A stretch of DNA of 45,510 bases from the NCBI GenBank assembly GCA_021851465.1, contig JAJZDL010000001.1, positions 1 through 45,510 on the forward strand, in the 5' to 3' direction. The notes below the pieces were generated by a model. That model was not told where the DNA came from and searched no databases. It worked only from the letters and a program-made list of their open reading frames with translations. Of the stretch, positions 13,487 to 44,676 are shown in pieces. Every line of letters begins with the position of its first letter. Positions within the stretch are counted from its first letter, which is position 1. The position numbers and the translations under genes are program-made. This DNA is from Acidobacteriota bacterium (lineage in GTDB: Bacteria; Acidobacteriota; Terriglobia; Terriglobales; Acidobacteriaceae).

Positions 13487-14536
13487 TCAAGGGAGGTCTT
13501 TTCGGACGAGGTACTCGTCCATGAGAACGGCGATGAGGGCTGCGGTGGGGACTGCGACGAGCGCGCCGGGGATGCCTGCCAGCTCGGTCCCGGCGATGAG
13601 CGCGATGAGGATGGCGAGGCCCATGAGGTTGACGCTGTGGCGCATGATGCGTGGGATGAGGACTGCGTTTTCGATGTTGACGTAGACCGCGTAGAAGAGG
13701 AAGACGGCAGCCATCTTGGTCCATGAGTCGAGCGCCGCGACAAAGGCGACGAGCAGGATGGTGACGACGCCCCCGGCGATGGGGACGATGTTCATCAGGC
13801 CCATGAGGATGCCGAGAAGGAAGAAGTAGCGGACGTGCAGCAGGCCGAAGACGAGGGTGCTGGAGAGGCCGAGGATGAGCATCAGCAGGGCCTGTCCGAA
13901 GAGCCACTTGCTCATGCGCAGCTCGGCGCGTTGCAGCGTGGAGTCGAGGCGCAGGCGGTTGGCGGGGGAGAAGAGCGTGAGCATCCAGAGGTAGGCGCGG
14001 TCGCCTTCCAGCATGAAGTAAACGCAAAGGACGAGAGCGGTGAGCAGGTTGAAGAAGTGGCCCATCCAGTCCGGGAAGGATGCGAGGAGAAAGGCGGCGG
14101 AGGAGGAGAGCGCATCTTCGGCGCGTTGCGTGATTGCATCGACTCCGAGCTTGTCGGCGAGCGGAATGCGCTTGATGCGGGCGAGGATGGGAGGAATGCG
14201 CGCAGGCAGGTCGGTGGCGAACTGGCGAAGATTTCGGATGACGGGCGGGAGACCGACGACGAAGAAGAGTGCGATTGCGAGAAAGGCGCAGGTGAGCAAG
14301 AGCGCGATGGCGAGACCGCGCGAGATGCGGCGCGAGCCACGCATCCGGAAGGACATGATGCCGTTGACCGCGGGCGTGAGCACGACTGCGAAGAGCGCAC
14401 TGATATAGACGAGGGTGAGGACTTCGCGCAGGCGCCAGGCCAGTGCGAGGGCCAGCAGAACGGCGATGGTGAAGAGGATGTGTCCGCGGACGATGCCGTT
14501 GTCCTGTTCTGTCGGAGTGGAGGGCGAGGTGGGCAG
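13487..14536 (-). CDS. AI-2E family (PerM/TqsA-like) transporter
   Basis: Multi-TM protein; VLTPAVN, YFMLEG, WLFGQ, NIVPIAG, IENAVLIPRIM, GIPGALVAVPTAA. Start is uncertain (CTG 14536 after AAGGAG, or ATG 14587). Confidence 0.88.
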   Translation of the reverse strand: MPTSPSTPTEQDNGIVRGHILFTIAVLLALALAWRLREVLTLVYISALFAVVLTPAVNGIMSFRMRGSRRISRGLAIALLLTCAFLAIALFFVVGLPPVIRNLRQFATDLPARIPPILARIKRIPLADKLGVDAITQRAEDALSSSAAFLLASFPDWMGHFFNLLTALVLCVYFMLEGDRAYLWMLTLFSPANRLRLDSTLQRAELRMSKWLFGQALLMLILGLSSTLVFGLLHVRYFFLLGILMGLMNIVPIAGGVVTILLVAFVAALDSWTKMAAVFLFYAVYVNIENAVLIPRIMRHSVNLMGLAILIALIAGTELAGIPGALVAVPTAALIAVLMDEYLVRKDLP

Positions 14537-14597
14537 GGTCTGCTCCTTTTGCGGGATGCGCGGTGCCGTGCATCCAGTACGATGCATCCAGTGTGCC

Positions 14598-15218
14598 TCA
14601 AGCAGAGGGCTTGTGTGTGGCCAGACGGTCGAGGAGGACGGCGACAGTCTGCTCGGGGGAGAGGCCGGCGGTGTCCAGCGTGAGCTGGGCGAGGCGGCGG
14701 TAGATGGGCTGGCGAAGGAGAAAGCGTGCCTCGGCGGCGGCGGAGTCGGCGAGCAGAGGACGAAGCTGGCTGGCGGCCTCGTTGGGTGCGATGCCGGAGG
14801 CCGCGGGGTTGAGGGCCTGCATCATGCATCGGTCGAAGAGAGTTGCGAATGGGGCGTCGAGGAAGATGGTTGCAGTCTGCGGGGTCTGCTCCAGGAGAAG
14901 GCGGTTGGTGAGGACCTCCGGCGCGCCTCCGCCGAGGGCCAGAACGAGGCTGCTGCGGCCGAGGGCGGAGGCCAGGGCCGCGGACTCAAGCTGGCGGAAG
15001 TGCGCTTCGCCGTGAGTCGAGAAGATGGAGGGGACTGTGAGGCCAGTGCGCGACTCGATGTAGGCATCGAGGTCGAGGAAGTCCCAGGCAAGGCGATCGG
15101 CTAGCAGGCGCCCGACGGTGGTCTTGCCGGCACCCATGAATCCGGTGAGAACGAGGCGTTGGAGATGCGGCGGCGCGGCCACGGCGTTGTGGGGCTCGGC
15201 TGCGGACTGGACGATCAT
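14598..15218 (-). CDS. aroK: Shikimate kinase
   Basis: LTGFMGAGKTTVGRLLA, FLDLD, GEAHFRQLES, LALGGG, RPLL, RQPIY. SD AAGGAG. Confidence 0.95.
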   Translation of the reverse strand: MIVQSAAEPHNAVAAPPHLQRLVLTGFMGAGKTTVGRLLADRLAWDFLDLDAYIESRTGLTVPSIFSTHGEAHFRQLESAALASALGRSSLVLALGGGAPEVLTNRLLLEQTPQTATIFLDAPFATLFDRCMMQALNPAASGIAPNEAASQLRPLLADSAAAEARFLLRQPIYRRLAQLTLDTAGLSPEQTVAVLLDRLATHKPSA

Positions 15219-15340: not shown

Positions 15341-15378
15341 AAAAAGGAAAGCCGCGACCATTTGCTTGGGTCGCGGCT
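15341..15378 (-). terminator. Intrinsic terminator of the aroK leader (attenuator)
   Basis: Minus strand AGCCGCGACC-CAAGCAAAT-GGTCGCGGCT-TTCCTTTTT: a perfect 10-bp stem plus U tract, 120 nt upstream of aroK. Confidence 0.85.
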
Positions 15379-15416
15379 CCGTGGATATGGCGGATGCTCT
15401 GAAGTTCGATCTTTTT

Positions 15417-15515
15417 TTATCGATCCAGAGATGCACGCAAGCCCAGCAGACCCGCTCCCTGCCGCCATGGGCAGGGATAGGTAAAGCAGGCGTACATTGG
15501 CGAGCGCTGTTTCAT
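15417..15515 (-). CDS. Putative aromatic-amino-acid leader peptide (32 aa)
   Basis: MKQRSPMYACFTYPCPWRQGAGLLGLRASLDR, with Y, F, Y, W clustered at codons 8-17; lies between the promoter and the terminator. Confidence 0.7.
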   Translation of the reverse strand: MKQRSPMYACFTYPCPWRQGAGLLGLRASLDR

Positions 15516-15525
15516 CCTGATTGTG

Positions 15526-15555
15526 AGAGTACACCGGCGAAGAAAATGGATGCAA
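15526..15555 (-). promoter_or_regulatory. sigma70-type promoter of the aroK leader
   Basis: TTGCAT-N18-TACTCT, ending 10 nt before the leader ATG. Confidence 0.55.
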
Positions 15556-15811: not shown

Positions 15812-18745
15812 ATGCAATCCTCCGCTGCGCTGCCCCATCCGATTCAGCAGGCTCTTGAGCGCGGCTTTACCATTGTCACTGCCAACCAGCGCGCCGCCCG
15901 TACGCTGCATCGTGCCTTCGATCTCCACCAACGCGCTCGAAGCCGTCCATTCTGGGAGCCGCCCACGATCCTCGCCTGGGACGCCTGGCTCGCCGACCTC
16001 TGGCATCGTCTTCTGCTCGACGGAGTCGCAACCGAACTCCTGCTCAGCCCCACGCAGGAGCACACCCTCTGGCGCGCCGTCATCGACGACGATGCAGCGA
16101 CGACCGAAACAGTTGACAGCGCAACAGGCACCGCCGCGCTCAGCCTTCGCCCCATCGACTCGCTCGCCGCGCTCGCCGCCGACGCATGGAGCCTGCTGCA
16201 CGCCTACCGTGCCCGCCGTCGTCTGCAATCCGCCGTCGCGAGTACCGACACGCGCGCCTTCGCCCGCTGGGCCGGCGAATTCGACCGTCGCTCGGCCCGC
16301 GCGAAGTACCTCACCGAAGCGCAGCTCCCCGAAGCTCTGCGCGCCGCCATTGAAGCAGGCCGGCTCATCCCGCCAACCGGCCTCCTGCTCGTCGGCTTCG
16401 ACCTCAAAACGCCTGCGCAGTCTGCCCTGCTCGATGCCATCGCCGACGCTGGCTCCGCGATCCAAGAGTTCAGCCCGCAGATCGCGGCGGTCTCATCCAT
16501 CGCACTCGCACCGAGATCGCTGGAAAGTGCAGAGTGTGGGCCGGCCGCAACTCTCACCCTCGTCGCCGCGCCCGACGAGCGTGCCGAACTCGCCGCTTGC
16601 GCCCGCTGGCTGCGCGCCCACCTCATCGATCGGCCCACCGCCCGCATCGCCGTCGTCGTTCCCGCAATCGAGACCGACCGCGCCGAGATCGACCGCATCT
16701 TCCGCCAGGCGCTCGCGCCCGAGCTCAACCGCATCGCCGCGCCCGCCAACTCCGACCCATTCGAGTTTTCGCTCGGCATTCCGCTGGCCAACACACCGAT
16801 CGTCGCCACCGCGCTCGACATCCTGCGATGGGCCGCCGGTTCGCTCCCGCTCGACCGCGTCTCAGCGCTGCTGCTCTCGCCCCACTTCGCCGCAGACACC
16901 TCGCACGCCAACGGCGAACACCTCGCCCGCGCCGAGTTCGATGCCTTCGTCCTGCGCCAGCAACCTCTCCTCCAGCCGAGGATCTCGCTCGACGCGCTGC
17001 TCACCCTCGCCTCCAACCCGAAGCACGGCGCGGCCACTCTGCCCAACCTGCTCCAACACCTGAGCGCACTCCGACCGCTCTTCCTGCAACGCGGCCTCCT
17101 CACCGCCGAGCGCACCCACGCCGAATGGGCCGCAACCTTCCACGAGATCCTCGACGCCGCCGGATCGGCCGCGCCGGGCCGCGACAGCAGCGTCGAGTTC
17201 CAGGCCCGCCGCAAGTGGGAGTCCGCCCTCGACGAACTCACCACCCTCGACTTCGGCTCCCGCTCCGACGGCACGCGCGTCCGCTTCGCCGCCGCCCTCG
17301 ACGCGCTCGAACGCATCTGTGCACAGACACTCTTCGCCCCAGAATCCCGCCACGCACCCATCCAGATCATGGGCCCGCTGGAGTCCGCAGGCTCCACCTT
17401 CGACGCTCTCTGGTTCCTGCGCGCCAGCGACCTCGCATGGCCCTCCAAACCCACGCCGAATCCGCTCCTGCCCTGGCTGCTGCAACGCGACCTTGCCATG
17501 CCCGGAGCCAACCCAACGCACGACGCCGCACACGCACGCAACATCACCCAACGCATCGCTGCCTGCGCGCCAACCGTCCTCTTCAGCTACGCGCAGCAGA
17601 CCGTCGACGGATCCCAGCGTCCGTCCTCCGTCGTCACCGCCCTCGCCGCATCCGGCCTCACGCTCGATCTCCGCACCGCCGAGGAGATCGCTCCCTGCGA
17701 ATCCGCGCCCGCGCCCATCGCCCTCGAAGCCATCCCCGACGATGCACCCATTCCGCCTCCGCCAGACCGCACTCTGCGTGGCGGCGCATCCATCCTCGCC
17801 GCGCAGGCCGCCTGCGGCTTCCGTGCCTTCGCCGAAAAGCGCCTCTTCTCCTCTGCGCTCGAACCCTCCACGTTCGGCCTCGACCCACGCCAGCGCGGCA
17901 GCCTCGTCCACGCCACTCTGGAGAGCTTCTGGTCCCACGTCGAAACGCAGGCCGCACTCCAGCTTCTGGCCATCGAAGAGCGCGACGGCATCCTCTCCCA
18001 CTGCATCGACGCCGCCATCGCTCGGCATCTCCCCAATCCCGCGCCCGGCTGGCCCCGCGCCTACCTCCTCGCCGAACGACAGCGCCTGCTCAACCTCCTC
18101 CGCTCGTGGCTCGACTTCGAGGCCACCGAACGCATGCCCTTCACCGTCAAGTCCTGCGAAGAGATGCTTCGCGACGTCCAGATCGGCCCGCTCCGCATCG
18201 AGATCCGCGTCGACCGCATCGACACCATCCAACTCCCTGCCGCCCCAGACGAGGACACTCCCGAAGAAGTCTCGTCAGCCAACAACCCACTCTCCGGCGA
18301 GATCATCCTCGACTACAAGACCGGCCCGGCCAGCACCGCCGACTGGCTCGGCGACCGCCCCGACGCGCCCCAACTTCCCCTCTACGCCGTCGTCTCCGAA
18401 GTCCCCAACCTCGCCGCCATCGCCTTCGCCAGCGTCCGCCCCGGCAAGGATCTCGGCCTGCTCGGCTACCAGTCGCGCGATGGACTCCTCCCCAAGGCCG
18501 CGAAGCTGAAGACCGAGAGCCTCGCAGCCCAGGTCGAGCAGTGGCGCGCCGTCCTCACCGCCCTCGCCGAGGACTTCCACTCCGGCAACGCGCGCGTCGA
18601 TCCCAAGCACTACCCGAAGACCTGCGAGCACTGCGATCAGCGCCTGCTCTGCCGCCTCAACCCCGCCACCCTCGACGCCGCCTCCGATGAAGACTCCGAC
18701 ACGGACGACTCCATCCCCACTGCTCAGGAGGCCGCCCGTGGCTGA
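15812..18745 (+). CDS. addB: AddB-like DNA repair protein (inactive helicase fold plus PD-(D/E)XK nuclease with Fe-S cysteines)
   Basis: VTANQRAAR, FSLGIPL, QAACGFRAF, RGSLVH, RVDRID, ILDYKTG, PQLPLYA, CEHCDQRLLC. Coupled to the downstream UvrD-type helicase/nuclease. Confidence 0.85.
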   Translation: MQSSAALPHPIQQALERGFTIVTANQRAARTLHRAFDLHQRARSRPFWEPPTILAWDAWLADLWHRLLLDGVATELLLSPTQEHTLWRAVIDDDAATTETVDSATGTAALSLRPIDSLAALAADAWSLLHAYRARRRLQSAVASTDTRAFARWAGEFDRRSARAKYLTEAQLPEALRAAIEAGRLIPPTGLLLVGFDLKTPAQSALLDAIADAGSAIQEFSPQIAAVSSIALAPRSLESAECGPAATLTLVAAPDERAELAACARWLRAHLIDRPTARIAVVVPAIETDRAEIDRIFRQALAPELNRIAAPANSDPFEFSLGIPLANTPIVATALDILRWAAGSLPLDRVSALLLSPHFAADTSHANGEHLARAEFDAFVLRQQPLLQPRISLDALLTLASNPKHGAATLPNLLQHLSALRPLFLQRGLLTAERTHAEWAATFHEILDAAGSAAPGRDSSVEFQARRKWESALDELTTLDFGSRSDGTRVRFAAALDALERICAQTLFAPESRHAPIQIMGPLESAGSTFDALWFLRASDLAWPSKPTPNPLLPWLLQRDLAMPGANPTHDAAHARNITQRIAACAPTVLFSYAQQTVDGSQRPSSVVTALAASGLTLDLRTAEEIAPCESAPAPIALEAIPDDAPIPPPPDRTLRGGASILAAQAACGFRAFAEKRLFSSALEPSTFGLDPRQRGSLVHATLESFWSHVETQAALQLLAIEERDGILSHCIDAAIARHLPNPAPGWPRAYLLAERQRLLNLLRSWLDFEATERMPFTVKSCEEMLRDVQIGPLRIEIRVDRIDTIQLPAAPDEDTPEEVSSANNPLSGEIILDYKTGPASTADWLGDRPDAPQLPLYAVVSEVPNLAAIAFASVRPGKDLGLLGYQSRDGLLPKAAKLKTESLAAQVEQWRAVLTALAEDFHSGNARVDPKHYPKTCEHCDQRLLCRLNPATLDAASDEDSDTDDSIPTAQEAARG

Positions 18746-21700
18746 ACTCCTCCGCTTCCCTGGCAATGCCCAGCCGCTCCCGCCGCCTGACGCCGAAGCT
18801 CGACGCGAGGCCCTCGACATCCACCGCTCCTTCATCGTCGAAGCCCCCGCCGGCTCCGGCAAGACCGGCCTGCTCATCCAGCGCCTCCTCAAGCTCCTCG
18901 CCGACGACTCGGTCGAGCAGCCCGAACAGGTCCTCGCCATCACCTTCACCAACAAGGCCACCGCAGAGTTGCGCGACCGCGTCCTCGCCCACCTCACCGC
19001 CGCCGCAGAAACCGAAGCCGCCAAACCGAAAGTCCTGACACAGCTCGCAGCCGCCGCGGAGGAACCACCGCCAGCCTCAACGGATTTCCAGTCGGAAACG
19101 CTCGCCCTCGCCCACTCCGTCCTCGCCCGCGACCGCCAGATCGGCTGGAACCTCCTCGACCAGCCGCACCGCCTCAACATCCGCACCATCGACTCGGTCT
19201 GCGCAGAGATCGCCCGCACCCTCCCCGTCCTCTCCGGTTCGGGCGGTCGCCTCACGCCCACCACCGACGCCGACCCACTGCACCGCGAGGCCGCCCGCCG
19301 CACCCTTCTTCTCCTCGGTTCCGGCGACTCCGACCTCGACACCGCCCTGCGCGACCTCCTCCTCCACCGCGACGGCAACCTCGCCGACTGCGAGTCCCTC
19401 CTCGCCAACATGCTCAGCCTGCGCGACCAGTGGGGCAACCTCATCCCCCTCGCCCGCCCACATCTCGACGACGCATGGCTCGACGCCAACGTCCTGCCTC
19501 GCCTCGAGCTTGCCCTCGACCAAGCCATCCGCGCCGACCTCACCACCCTCGCGCAGGCCTTCCCCGCCAACCTCCTCGCAGACCTCACCAACCTCGCCGC
19601 AGACCTCGCTCCCGCCGCCCCATACGATCCCGAACTCCCGTCGCCCATCGCCCTCTGCGCCAACCTCCGAACCCCACCCGAAGCCCTCGCCGAGCACCTC
19701 GACCACTGGCTCTCCCTGATTCACCTGCTCATCGTCGGCGATGGAGGCTGGCGCAAGGAAAGAGGCATCACCGGAAAAAACTTAAAGTTTGGCTACAACA
19801 GAAAACACTCCAACCACACCCGCCTGGTCTCCCTGATTGACGCCCTCCGCGACCGCGACGACCTCCTACGCACCTTCGAGAAGATCCGCTCCCTGCCGCC
19901 CGCCCACTACCCCGCCGACCAGTGGACCGTCGCCAAGTCTCTCTTCCGCGTCCTCAGCCGCGCTCTGGTCGAGCTCCAGTTCGTCTTCGCCGCCCGCAAC
20001 CAGTGCGACTTCACCGAACTCAGCCTCCTCGCCCGCCACGCCCTCGCCGCAGACTCCGGCCCAGAAGACCTCGCCTCCGCACTCGGTGCGCGCCTCCAGC
20101 ACCTCCTCGTCGACGAGATGCAGGACACCTCAACCAGTCAGTACACCCTCATCGAACTCCTCACCGCCTCGTGGGACGGATACTCACAGACCGTCTTTCT
20201 AGTCGGCGACCCCCGCCAATCCATCTACCTCTTCCGCCAGGCCCGTGTCGAGCGTTTCCTCCGCGCCCTGCACTCCCAACACCTCGGCGACCTACCTCTC
20301 ACCCGCCTCTGCCTCACCGCTAACTTCCGCTCTCAGAGTGCTCTAGTCGAAGAGTTCAACCAAAACTTTAGCTTAATGTTCCCTCCCAAAGACGACCTCC
20401 CCTACACATCTGCCGACCCCACCCTCCCCGCCTCGCCCCACGCCCACGCCACCGTCTGGCACGCCAACCCCATCGCGTCGATCCCGGACGACGCAGCCAC
20501 CGCCCCTCTCACTCTCGCCCAACTCAAGCAGCAACAATCCCGCCGAGACGCCCTCGAAGTCCGCAGCATCGCCCGCGTATGGCTCACCAAGCCGCTTCCC
20601 GCAGGTCGAACCAAACCCTGGCAGCTCGCCGTCCTCGTCTCCAACCGGAAACACCTCAACGAGATCGTCGCTGCCCTCAAACAACAGGATGACCTCGGCC
20701 TAATTCCCTTCCGCGCCGTCGAGATCGAAGCCCTCAGCGACCGCCAGGAGATCCTCGACCTCACCGCGCTCACCCGCGCTCTGCTTCATCCCGCCGACCG
20801 AGTCGCCGCCCTCGCCGTCCTGCGCGCCCCCTGGTGCGGCCTCTCGCTCGCCGACCTGCACACCCTCACCGGGGCCGACGATCCCACCCTCCAAAGCCAC
20901 TCCATCCACAGCCTCATCGAGAATCGCGCTCACCTCCTCCCCGACGACTCCCGCCAGCGCCTTCAACGAGTCGGCAAGGTTCTCGCCGACGCCACCGCCC
21001 AGCGCACCCGCCTCACCCCCGCCCAGTTCGTCGAGCGCGCTTGGCGCTCCCTCGGAGGAGACGTATTTCTCAACAGGACTCAACTCAATAACACAATTAT
21101 TTTCTTTCAGTTATTGGATAAACTTCAACTTCAAGAAAAAGATAGTTCGTCCATCAATCTGCTCGACCCAACCCTCCTCCAAGCCCACCTACAAAAGCTC
21201 TACGCCGAACCCGATCCAATCCCCCCCGGAACCCCCTTCGTCGAACTCCTCACCATCCACAAGGCCAAGGGCCTGGAGTGGGATGTCGTTGTCGTTCCCG
21301 CCCTCGAGCGCGGCCCCGGCAGAAGCCCAACCCGTCTCCTCACCTGGTCTGAGATCGACACCGCACTCCAGCCCGCCACCTCCGAAGGCCAGCCCAACGA
21401 CCGCCCGGCCCACATCATGCTCGCACCCATCGCCGGTCGCGGCGAACCGTCGAAGGCCCTCAACAACTGGCTCAACGCAATCCACAGCGCCCGCGAGGCC
21501 GCCGAGCGCAAGCGCCTCTTCTACGTCGCCTGCACCCGCGCCCGAGAGGAGCTGCACCTCTTCGCCGCTCCCACCGTCTCCGCCAAAGGGCAGATCGTCC
21601 CTCGCTACAACAGCCTCCTCAACGCCGCATGGCCCGCCGCCCAGCCCCACTTCGCCGCCGCGGAGACAGACCCCAGCCAAGAGAATCCATCCTCCCGACC

Positions 21701-22550
21701 GGAGCACAGTGCAGTGGTGGCTCCCCCGCATCTTTCCCCGAACGCCATGGAACCTCTCCCCTTGACCCTGGATCTCGCCGCCTCAGCAGCCTTCACACTC
21801 GAACGCCTTCCTCTCGCCTTCGATCCCGACGAGCGCATCGCCGCCGCGCGCGCCCAAAGGCTCCCCAGCGGCGACCCAGACAGCGGCCCCGCCTCCAACC
21901 ACGCCCCGTTCTCTCGTCCCGAAGGCTCCTTTGCCGCGCGCTCCTTCGGCAACGTCGTCCACGCCGCGCTCGAATCCTGCGCCACCCGCATCGCCACCGG
22001 CCACTCCCCCGCCGCGTTGCTCGCCGAACTCCCCACCTGGCCCCCGCGCCTCGCCGCCCTCCTGCGCGCAGACGGCCTGCCCCACGCCACCGTCAACCGC
22101 CTCGCCCTCGAAGCGCAGGCCACCCTCGAAAACACCCTGCGCGATCCCGACGGCCTCTGGCTGCTCGCGCCAAACGCCTGCGCCTCCAGCGAGCTTGCCC
22201 TCACCGCATGGCCCACGCCTCAAACCGCCAACGGCCAGGCCGCCATCCACCCCATCTCTATCCGCATCGACCGCATCTTTCGCGCCGGGGCCGACCCTCG
22301 CGCCCCCGGCGAGGACGTCCTCTGGATCGTCGATTACAAGACCTCCACGCCGCACAGCTCCGCCAGCCTCGACGACTTCCTCGCCCACCAGCGCGCCACC
22401 TACGCCCCACAACTCGAAACCTACGCCCGCATCCTCACCCAGCTTCCGCACCCCCCGGACCTCCCCGCACCCAAGAAGGTTCGTCTCGCGCTCTACTACC
22501 CCGCCCTGCCCCGCCTCGACTGGTGGCCGCTCGCCATGCCATCCGCCTGA
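18738..22550 (+). CDS. addA: AddA-like UvrD helicase / RecB-family nuclease
   Basis: APAGSGKT, AITFTNKA, LVDEMQD, VGDPRQSIYLFR, NFRS, TIHKAKGLE, YVACTRA, IDR...VDYKT, QLETY. GTG 18738 follows AGGAGG and overlaps the addB stop. Confidence 0.9.
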   Translation: MAELLRFPGNAQPLPPPDAEARREALDIHRSFIVEAPAGSGKTGLLIQRLLKLLADDSVEQPEQVLAITFTNKATAELRDRVLAHLTAAAETEAAKPKVLTQLAAAAEEPPPASTDFQSETLALAHSVLARDRQIGWNLLDQPHRLNIRTIDSVCAEIARTLPVLSGSGGRLTPTTDADPLHREAARRTLLLLGSGDSDLDTALRDLLLHRDGNLADCESLLANMLSLRDQWGNLIPLARPHLDDAWLDANVLPRLELALDQAIRADLTTLAQAFPANLLADLTNLAADLAPAAPYDPELPSPIALCANLRTPPEALAEHLDHWLSLIHLLIVGDGGWRKERGITGKNLKFGYNRKHSNHTRLVSLIDALRDRDDLLRTFEKIRSLPPAHYPADQWTVAKSLFRVLSRALVELQFVFAARNQCDFTELSLLARHALAADSGPEDLASALGARLQHLLVDEMQDTSTSQYTLIELLTASWDGYSQTVFLVGDPRQSIYLFRQARVERFLRALHSQHLGDLPLTRLCLTANFRSQSALVEEFNQNFSLMFPPKDDLPYTSADPTLPASPHAHATVWHANPIASIPDDAATAPLTLAQLKQQQSRRDALEVRSIARVWLTKPLPAGRTKPWQLAVLVSNRKHLNEIVAALKQQDDLGLIPFRAVEIEALSDRQEILDLTALTRALLHPADRVAALAVLRAPWCGLSLADLHTLTGADDPTLQSHSIHSLIENRAHLLPDDSRQRLQRVGKVLADATAQRTRLTPAQFVERAWRSLGGDVFLNRTQLNNTIIFFQLLDKLQLQEKDSSSINLLDPTLLQAHLQKLYAEPDPIPPGTPFVELLTIHKAKGLEWDVVVVPALERGPGRSPTRLLTWSEIDTALQPATSEGQPNDRPAHIMLAPIAGRGEPSKALNNWLNAIHSAREAAERKRLFYVACTRAREELHLFAAPTVSAKGQIVPRYNSLLNAAWPAAQPHFAAAETDPSQENPSSRPEHSAVVAPPHLSPNAMEPLPLTLDLAASAAFTLERLPLAFDPDERIAAARAQRLPSGDPDSGPASNHAPFSRPEGSFAARSFGNVVHAALESCATRIATGHSPAALLAELPTWPPRLAALLRADGLPHATVNRLALEAQATLENTLRDPDGLWLLAPNACASSELALTAWPTPQTANGQAAIHPISIRIDRIFRAGADPRAPGEDVLWIVDYKTSTPHSSASLDDFLAHQRATYAPQLETYARILTQLPHPPDLPAPKKVRLALYYPALPRLDWWPLAMPSA
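21688..21735 (+). repeat. Degenerate family A repeat in-frame in addA
   Basis: CATCCTCCCGACCGGAGCACAGTGCAGTGGTGGCTCCCCCGCATCTTT aligns with the recQ copy and encodes SSRPEHSAVVAPPHL in the helicase-nuclease linker. Confidence 0.65.
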
Positions 22551-44490: not shown

Positions 44491-44590
44491 CGGCAGCCGG
44501 ATGCCCCAAATCACGCAATAACACATTTATAATGTGTAGATTATACGTAGTTCATTGACAACCGACAACCCTCAAGCCCACCCAGGCAAA

Positions 44591-44676
44591 GCGCCAACGG
44601 CGCGCCCTATTCTAGCCTGGGCCGAAGGCCCAGGAGGCCGCAGCGAAGCCGTCCGAGGGCTGAAGGCCCGCCCTAT
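44591..44676. repeat. REP-like triple hairpin
   Basis: GCGCC-AAC-GGCGC-gccctat, CCTGGGCC-GAA-GGCCCAGG, GGGC-TGAAG-GCCC-gccctat. Confidence 0.7.

What the first reader, a model, noticed from the sequence alone, without database searches (positions are those of the whole stretch)
15341..15555. Complete Tyr/Phe/Trp leader-peptide attenuator upstream of shikimate kinase (aroK)
Seen on the minus strand, in order: a promoter-like TTGCAT-N18-TACTCT; an almost leaderless 32-codon ORF MKQRSPMYACFTYPCPWRQGAGLLGLRASLDR with all three aromatic residues clustered; a hairpin UCCCUGCC/GGCAGGGA over the Trp codon; a segment GGGUC-UGCUG-GGCUU-G-CGUG in the distal leader that pairs with CACG-GAGCC-GC-GACCC, the 5' arm of the terminator (antiterminator); and a 10-bp terminator with U tract. 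The geometry fits trpL/pheL logic: stalling at codons 8-17 leaves the antiterminator free, while translation to the stop masks it. Known: classical attenuators control the trp, phe, his, ilv, leu and thr operons. Inference: one sensor for all three aromatic amino acids on a common-pathway gene; I do not know of this being described for aroK.
Basis: partly seen in the sequence, partly recalled or inferred. Interest (0 to 1): 0.85.

Follow-up and report, generated by a model that had tools for sequence, protein, structure and literature searches.

The report
Triple-aromatic leader attenuator of shikimate kinase
A tiny unannotated reading frame packed with phenylalanine, tyrosine and tryptophan codons sits ahead of a transcription stop signal upstream of the shikimate kinase gene in this group of acidobacteria, and likely switches the gene on when aromatic amino acids run short; the mechanism is textbook, but this RNA family and this target gene appear undescribed.

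Summary
Real and conserved. The promoter, near-leaderless 32-codon ORF, hairpin and terminator are at the stated coordinates. 94 of 102 aroK loci from Granulicella/Edaphobacter/Terriglobus-type Acidobacteriaceae carry the same layout; 85 of 88 distinct leaders have Phe, Tyr and Trp codons in one 13-codon window, with Trp usually 9 nt before a GCGG that pairs with the terminator's 5' arm. Folding with a modelled ribosome predicts the antiterminator holds only while the ribosome sits in the aromatic window; shuffles lose this. The leader belongs to a wider family: a second copy heads trpB-trpA-chorismate mutase-aroF-tyrA in this genome, and family members elsewhere precede aroF, trpB or chorismate mutase, with Trp codons tracking the branch regulated. 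Nothing was shown in vivo, and sensing of all three amino acids is inferred; Corynebacterium aroR (Phe-Tyr-Phe) responds to Phe only. No Rfam family or paper found. The scan noted this family before on two other genomes. Verdict: new variant of classical attenuation.

The parts
15550..15555 (-). -35 hexamer TTGCAT (family consensus TTGCAA-like)
   Evidence: a TT(G/C)(C/T)NN-N17/18-TANNNT promoter precedes the leader start in 85 of 88 leaders
15526..15531 (-). -10 hexamer TACTCT; 10 nt before the leader ATG, so the transcript is predicted to be near-leaderless
   Evidence: -10 to start distance 7-13 nt in 82 of 88 leaders; SD-like 4-mer in only 2 of 88
15417..15515 (-). Leader ORF, 32 codons, with Y8 (15494-15492), F11 (15485-15483), Y13 (15479-15477), W17 (15467-15465)
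   Evidence: no Pfam or NCBIfam family
15486..15491 (-). Segment 1 (GCCUGC, codons 9-10): predicted to pair with segment 2 (GCGGGU 15455-15450) when no ribosome covers it
   Evidence: segment-2 core paired upstream with probability 0.94 in the window; >0.5 in 84 of 88 leaders
15456..15477 (-). Local hairpin UCCCUGCC/GGCAGGGA with the Trp codon in the loop (stacked on the 1:2 helix)
15450..15455 (-). Segment 2 core (GCGG + GU), 9 nt after the Trp codon; 5' strand of the antiterminator
   Evidence: 9-nt spacing in 79 of 88 leaders; pairs with CCGC in the MFE of 86 of 88
15396..15431 (-). Inner hairpin of the antiterminator rod (CUCUGGA-UCGAU / AUCGA-UUCAGAG) around the leader stop codon
   Evidence: compensatory changes at 6 of 6 pairs of the conserved CUCUGA/UCAGAG helix
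15369..15379 (-). Segment 3: terminator 5' arm, shared with the antiterminator (CCGC 15376-15373)
15341..15359 (-). Segment 4: terminator 3' arm GGUCGCGGCU and tail UUUCCUUUUU
   Evidence: -20.8 kcal/mol; 10 consensus pairs, 3 with double-sided changes among 22 sequences
14598..15218 (-). aroK, shikimate kinase, 206 aa, with AAGGAG ribosome-binding site
   Evidence: Pfam PF01202 E 8.6e-36; NCBIfam shikimate kinase models, all below their curated cut-offs; single match in G000
13487..14587 (-). AI-2E family transporter directly downstream, possibly co-transcribed
   Evidence: PF01594 E 6.8e-48; next to aroK in 73 of 80 loci and in 23 of 27 aroK loci without the leader

Best explanation
This is likely a classical ribosome-mediated transcription attenuator that raises aroK (shikimate kinase) transcription when charged tRNA-Phe, tRNA-Tyr or tRNA-Trp is scarce. 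Shown by sequence and comparison: a conserved promoter, a near-leaderless ORF with a Phe/Tyr/Trp cluster ending 9 nt before a GCGG, and a terminator whose 5' arm (CCGC) is complementary to that GCGG. Predicted: a ribosome stalled with its A site anywhere from about 10 codons before the Trp to the Trp covers segment 1 and leaves GCGG free to pair with CCGC, so the terminator cannot form and RNA polymerase reads into aroK; a ribosome that passes the Trp covers GCGG, and with no ribosome segment 1 sequesters it, so in both cases the terminator forms near 15341-15345. Inferred: the aroK copy arose by duplication of an older pan-aromatic leader family that heads aroF, trpB and chorismate mutase operons, and was inserted upstream of aroK in the ancestor of the Granulicella/Edaphobacter/Terriglobus clade.
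For: Conservation: 22 of 22 same-family loci and 94 of 102 aroK loci overall while leader DNA is only about 57% identical by column. Codon signal: aromatics are 442 of 1144 codons in the window W-11..W+1 against 37 of 1160 in the distal ORF, 32 of 1144 and 91 of 1144 in the other frames, and about 6% in long ORFs; Tyr uses TAT and TAC about equally (81/77); the distal peptide varies freely, with frame changes. Switch geometry: energy holding the terminator 5' arm is a median -5.7 to -12.1 kcal/mol for A-site positions W-10..W, -2.5 at W+1, -1.1 at the stop, -1.9 without ribosome; Trp-stall minus stop is <= -6 in 79-87 of 88 real leaders against 18-20 of 440 shuffles. Gene association: an RNA model searched blind lands upstream of aromatic-pathway genes in 26 of 27 proteins scanned. 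Branch tracking: Trp codon in 24 of 24 trpB-first, 23 of 29 aroF-first, 1 of 10 chorismate-mutase-first leaders. In this window the Trp codon is unpaired (probability 0.02) yet keeps the family spacing. No TrpR found and no TyrR-type HTH over cut-off in G000.
Against: No transcript or ribosome data: three RNA runs laid gave no cover of the leader. RNAalifold found no consensus structure on the 64-sequence antiterminator alignment, and the outer GCGGC:GCCGC helix, though 96.5% paired, has no double-sided change, as expected for a strand that must pair with two partners but not positive covariation. The 1:2 helix is variable: a strict test finds it in only 29 of 88 naked MFEs. The Trp codon is paired in 60 of 88 leaders, so part of its conservation may be structural, and the 88 were picked requiring a Trp. 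In the window the no-ribosome state is only moderately closed (-6.2) and Y8 is marginal (-8.1 to -12.6 by assumed footprint); with a 12-nt footprint a stall at W17 would not antiterminate. The folding is equilibrium, not kinetic. Corynebacterium aroR carries Phe-Tyr-Phe but responds only to Phe (PMC11802643).
Confidence: 0.88

Rival explanations
1. It is a classical attenuator, but in practice it would respond to only one or two of the three amino acids (most likely Trp and Tyr, nearest the GCGG), the other codons being weak or kept for pairing. This is a sub-case of the best explanation.
For: Only one Phe and one Trp codon in the window's leader; predicted hold on the terminator arm is strongest at W-3..W and weaker at W-10..W-6; Phe at the fixed position is almost always TTT before A(C/G)C, a nucleotide-level pattern; Corynebacterium aroR ignores Tyr (PMC11802643, passage).
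Against: 85 of 88 leaders keep all three residues although their positions shift; Phe codons also occur at variable positions as TTC; Trp presence tracks the downstream branch across paralogs; all four aromatic codons in the window fall in the predicted permissive zone at a 6-9 nt footprint.
Confidence: 0.35
2. The leader would sense decoding efficiency of UNN codons (MiaA/MiaB modification at tRNA position 37, hence iron or stress status) rather than aromatic amino acid supply.
For: Phe, Tyr, Trp and Cys codons all begin with U, and Cys TGC occurs 59 times in the sensing window. That undermodified tRNAs relieve trp/phe attenuation in enterobacteria is recalled, not from a call.
Against: Cys sits mostly at W-2 where the codon ends in GC in 76 of 88 leaders whatever residue it encodes, so it is a pairing by-product; Ser is split 52 UCN / 58 AGY and Leu 4 UUR / 36 CUN, with no selection for UNN as such; targets are aromatic-pathway genes only.
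Confidence: 0.06
3. The peptide would act as a nascent-chain arrest sensor of free amino acid (TnaC-like) or as a small functional protein.
For: A near-invariant Trp and a recurrent Y-W-x-x-x-A-A pattern.
Against: Trp-to-stop distance varies from 9 to 17 codons; several leaders change frame after the Trp and keep the RNA helices; the A-A is the GCGGC strand read in frame; paralogs replace Trp by Phe or Tyr; no protein family match; product-induced arrest would switch a biosynthetic gene on in excess.
Confidence: 0.04
4. It would be a ligand-binding riboswitch, T-box or protein-bound leader, with the ORF incidental.
For: A long conserved rod and terminator could serve any cis switch.
Against: No Rfam match at gathering threshold or with E up to 10 beyond two irrelevant weak hits; ATG invariant; aromatic enrichment is confined to the ATG frame; little sequence conservation outside the codons and the GCGG/CCGC strands.
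Confidence: 0.02

Closest known systems
Corynebacterium glutamicum aroR leader upstream of aroF (Neshat et al. 2014, not read; seen through passages of PMC11802643 and PMC4046766)
   Same: Leader-peptide attenuation of a common shikimate-pathway gene with more than one kind of aromatic codon.
   Different: aroR has Phe-Tyr-Phe, no Trp, responds to Phe but not Tyr, and controls DAHP synthase; here the target is shikimate kinase and all three codons are conserved. Sequence homology was not tested.
Escherichia coli trpL and pheL attenuators (Rfam Trp and Phe leader families; PMC11802643, PMC11878033 passages)
   Same: Four-segment logic: 1:2, 2:3 antiterminator, 3:4 intrinsic terminator, control codons just upstream of segment 2.
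   Different: Single amino acid with tandem codons, on terminal-branch operons; no Rfam match here; this leader is near-leaderless and twice as long.
Acholeplasma uORFC-13-1 motif upstream of aroF (PMC8632094, passage)
   Same: Predicted uORF plus terminator on a common-pathway gene.
   Different: Phe run only, has an RBS, different phylum and target.
Multi-amino-acid leaders thrL (Thr, Ile) and ilvL (Ile, Leu, Val) (recalled)
   Same: One leader sums several end products of a branched pathway.
   Different: Different amino acid family; no equivalent with all three aromatics found in the searches made.

Membership tests
Classical ribosome-mediated transcription attenuator | Short leader ORF with codons for the pathway's end products | tested here: met
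   F, Y and W in 85 of 88 leaders, frame-specific enrichment
Classical ribosome-mediated transcription attenuator | Intrinsic terminator between leader and first gene | tested here: met
   conserved 10-bp stem with 3 covarying pairs and U-rich tail (interrupted in the window)
Classical ribosome-mediated transcription attenuator | Antiterminator mutually exclusive with the terminator | tested here: met
   GCGG:CCGC register in 86 of 88 MFEs; 83% of cells paired against 36-47% in slid controls; but RNAalifold consensus empty and outer helix without double-sided change
Classical ribosome-mediated transcription attenuator | Control codons placed so that a stalled ribosome frees segment 2 and a running ribosome covers it | tested here: met
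   (model, footprint 6-9 nt past the A site; fails for the Trp codon at 12 nt)
Classical ribosome-mediated transcription attenuator | Anti-antiterminator (1:2) in the untranslated state | tested here: inconclusive
   segment 2 paired upstream in 84 of 88 but no single conserved helix: 29 of 88 by strict test
Classical ribosome-mediated transcription attenuator | Leader is translated, and read-through rises on amino acid starvation | not testable with these tools
   no reads over the leader; needs Ribo-seq, Term-seq, reporters
Rfam Trp_leader / Phe_leader families | Covariance-model score at the gathering threshold | tested here: not met
T-box or metabolite riboswitch | Match to a curated aptamer or T-box model | tested here: not met
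TnaC-type arrest peptide | Conserved peptide residues at fixed distance from the arrest codon/stop | tested here: not met
   Trp-to-stop 9-17 codons; distal frame changes

The most novel reading that the evidence does not exclude
One undescribed leader-RNA family runs aromatic amino acid control across Acidobacteriaceae and probably other Acidobacteriota: a single modular attenuator that integrates Phe, Tyr and Trp charging as an OR gate, whose codon content is retuned to the branch it heads (Trp lost before chorismate mutase), and which was duplicated to bring shikimate kinase under control, forming an RNA-only regulon in place of TrpR/TyrR.
Probability: 0.5. Interest if true: 0.65.

Novelty: new variant of a known kind. 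Interest (0 to 1): 0.52.

Why it matters
It would add a three-input aromatic attenuator to the short list of multi-amino-acid leaders, show that shikimate kinase can be an attenuation target, and give the first defined amino-acid regulon for an abundant, poorly understood soil phylum. The natural series of paralogs, with the same scaffold and different codon content before different branch genes, makes directly testable how codon identity and position set an attenuator's specificity, a point left open by the Phe-only response of Corynebacterium aroR. It is also a ready Rfam family and a compact sensor part for aromatic production strains.

Tried and rejected
BLAST of the leader DNA found only 2 clear relatives among 40 genomes; protein-anchored retrieval was needed. 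Consensus promoter/terminator scan found nothing. RNAalifold on the antiterminator alignment predicted no pairs; a hand-named structure was counted instead. RNA runs: one small-share holder; contigs touched only parts of aroK, none the leader: no evidence either way. UNN/MiaA sensing, arrest peptide and riboswitch readings were considered and ranked low. No chorismate-binding (trpE-type) gene was found in G000 (genome 90% complete), so its leader could not be examined. Model R1 found nothing outside the family in 150 phylum genomes; R2 gave 17 genomes outside it, about half being short terminator-only matches that I discount. Passages of PMC4833913, PMC2965389, PMC3082878 and PMC5879953 held nothing on this element.

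Full report
Observation. The gene 120 nt further on is shikimate kinase (Pfam PF01202), the only match in the genome. The leader folds better than 200 of 200 shuffles. Rfam has no family for it, nor do Pfam or NCBIfam for the peptide (5 leaders scanned). Named relatives are Granulicella, Edaphobacter, Tunturiibacter and Terriglobus records, which places the window in Acidobacteriaceae.

Conservation. Of 41 genomes searched with AroK, 39 matched and 30 loci were returned. All 22 same-family loci, the window included, carry promoter, leader ORF and terminator; 0 of 8 loci of the sister family do, one of which has only 126 nt upstream. One of the 22 (L003) is from an unpublished genome; no conclusion depends on it. 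Adding the 80 best loci from the genome collection, a script found ORF plus terminator in 94 of 102. The 8 misses were read by hand: 2 truncated contigs, 1 intact leader missed by the pattern, 1 single-base slip, 1 decayed leader, 1 replaced leader, 2 lost. After removing 5 duplicates and 1 leader without the Trp anchor, 88 were analysed. These are kin, so counts are not independent events, and the script required a Trp; but among the 100 loci with enough upstream DNA only 4 lack a Trp codon near the GCGG.

Codon evidence. In the 13 codons from W-11 to W+1, 442 of 1144 codons are aromatic, against 37 of 1160 in the distal ORF and 32 and 91 of 1144 in the other two frames; 85 of 88 leaders have all three residues. 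Tyr uses both codons evenly. The Trp is codon 15 in 56 of 88 and lies 9 nt before GCGG in 79 of 88. The distal peptide varies in length and frame, so codons, not the product, matter. The start lies 7-13 nt after the -10 box in 82 of 88 and has an SD-like word in 2 of 88, so initiation is predicted to be near-leaderless. Cys at W-2 is a by-product of a conserved GC dinucleotide (76 of 88).

RNA switch. The terminator has 10 consensus pairs, 3 with double-sided changes. The GCGG in the ORF mimics the terminator's 3' arm and pairs with its 5' arm in the MFE of 86 of 88 leaders, closing a long rod whose apex surrounds the stop codon. On 64 diverse leaders (of 65 kept by an 85% filter; L003 left out) RNAalifold predicted no pairs; a named 14-pair structure gave 83% paired cells against 36-47% for slid controls and 48 double-sided changes against 22 in shuffles, all in the inner helices, none in the outer one. 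With a ribosome modelled as masking 9 nt past the A site, the energy holding the terminator's 5' arm is a median -5.7 to -12.1 kcal/mol for A-site positions W-10 to W, drops to -2.5 at W+1 and -1.1 at the stop, and is -1.9 with no ribosome. The permissive zone thus coincides with the aromatic cluster. The Trp-versus-stop difference is -6 or lower in 79 (9-nt) or 87 (6-nt) of 88 leaders and in 20 or 18 of 440 shuffles. In the window itself: Y8 -8.5, F11 -14.4, Y13 -10.9, W17 -12.6, stop -3.6, no ribosome -6.2; with a 12-nt mask W17 falls to -5.2. These are equilibrium estimates; the terminator is always the more stable helix, so the outcome depends on folding order, as in other attenuators (established knowledge).

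A family, not a one-off. After one search returned two earlier notes of this scan on other genomes that mentioned a second copy, I tested it: a profile of the aroK leaders finds one more site in G000 (E 1e-13), heading trpB-trpA-chorismate mutase-DAHP synthase-prephenate dehydrogenase. A covariance model matched 24 of 101 family genomes; of 27 downstream proteins scanned, 16 are DAHP synthases, 6 TrpB-type, 2 shikimate kinases, 1 chorismate mutase, 1 prephenate dehydratase, 1 unassigned (TrpB by blastp). A broader model matched 102 of 132 family genomes and 0 of 18 in the sister family (some weak matches are terminator-only), and in other families of the phylum 8 loci read by hand or script have Phe/Tyr-rich leaders before chorismate mutase or prephenate dehydratase-like ORFs. 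Of 114 loci given to the script, those with both a leader and a recognised gene reduce to 72 distinct leaders: Trp is present in 24 of 24 trpB-first, 23 of 29 aroF-first, 1 of 1 aroG-first, 8 of 8 aroK and 1 of 10 chorismate-mutase-first leaders, while Phe is in all and Tyr in all but one. The chorismate-mutase group comes from only four genera and one outside family, so this is suggestive, not a statistical test. The aroK copy is narrow: present in genera g1 and g55 and one g104 genome, absent from 27 of 27 aroK loci of other genera in the one-per-genus draw (the 30 best of 101 matches were fetched), where aroK sits close behind its upstream neighbour. I infer a duplication and insertion in the ancestor of that clade. 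TrpR was not found and no TyrR-type domain passed cut-off in G000 (90% complete).

Comparison with print. Attenuation of a common-pathway gene is known: Corynebacterium aroR (Phe-Tyr-Phe) before aroF, induced by Phe but not Tyr limitation (passages of PMC11802643, and PMC4046766), and a predicted Phe uORF before Acholeplasma aroF (passage of PMC8632094). E. coli uses TyrR and TrpR plus pheL and trpL (passages of PMC11878033); that its aroL shikimate kinase is repressed by TyrR and TrpR is recalled, and would make this leader a functional analogue. Nine full-text searches gave no paper on an aroK attenuator or on acidobacterial aromatic leaders. In the supplement of PMC2965389 the two aroK rows are unannotated terminators in Haemophilus and Shigella and the Ellin345 rows list no aromatic-pathway gene; supplements of PMC4833913 list Granulicella and Terriglobus genomes but not aroK. 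Vitreschak 2004, Lopatovskaya 2010 and Neshat 2014 were not read; from recall the first predicts mixed Phe/Tyr leaders in some gammaproteobacteria, so multi-aromatic leaders may have precedent there.

What is missing. No expression evidence: three RNA runs gave no cover of the leader. Translation, termination and the response to each amino acid are untested.

Verdict. It works like, and meets every testable criterion of, a classical attenuator (confidence 0.88); it is not a member of any curated leader family. New are the target (shikimate kinase), the conserved three-residue input and the phylum-level family with branch-tuned codons. The mechanism is ordinary, and the scan has noted the family on two other genomes. 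Interest 0.52; new variant of a known kind.

Noticed in passing
G000:C134:8512-8694 (-), loci L131/L157: Second copy of the leader family in the same genome (23 codons, F/Y/W, same GCGG and terminator) heading trpB-trpA-chorismate mutase-DAHP synthase-prephenate dehydrogenase, then a PALP+ACT enzyme.
   Followed up: yes
L083, 380 nt upstream of aroK: Leader ORF and promoter replaced by unrelated DNA while a terminator-like remnant stays in front of aroK.
   Followed up: no
L097 and L076, upstream of aroK: L097 has a decayed leader (frame broken, TGA where the Trp codon lies); L076 has a one-base slip in the T run before the Phe codons that shifts the ORF, which may be a sequencing error. L152 shows a similar out-of-frame leader before a non-aromatic ORF.
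   Followed up: no
L059, L099: aroK loci in the clade with no leader or terminator; L099 has repeat-like DNA upstream.
   Followed up: no
L225-L228 (family f19, outside the class): A different-looking leader with alternating Phe/Tyr codons and its own terminator before an ORF that reads like prephenate dehydratase (the ORF was not scanned). Possibly an independent or remote Phe/Tyr attenuator.
   Followed up: partly
L266 (G310) versus L167 (G137): Two genomes of one genus (g104) differ: one has the leader before aroK, the other does not; transfer, loss or binning error not resolved.
   Followed up: no
window 13487-14587 (-): AI-2E family transporter follows aroK in most family members with or without the leader; if co-transcribed it would fall under the attenuator.
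   Followed up: partly
window 15812-22550 (+): Divergent AddB-like (TIGR03623) and AddA/RecB-like helicase-nuclease pair lies where most relatives have an anti-sigma-like gene upstream of aroK; the leader travelled with aroK across this rearrangement.
   Followed up: no
window 44590-44634 (-): Acido-Lenti-1 RNA, the only Rfam match in the window.
   Followed up: no
G000 whole genome: No chorismate-binding-domain gene (trpE/pabB/menF type) found by PF00425; may reflect the 90% completeness.
   Followed up: no
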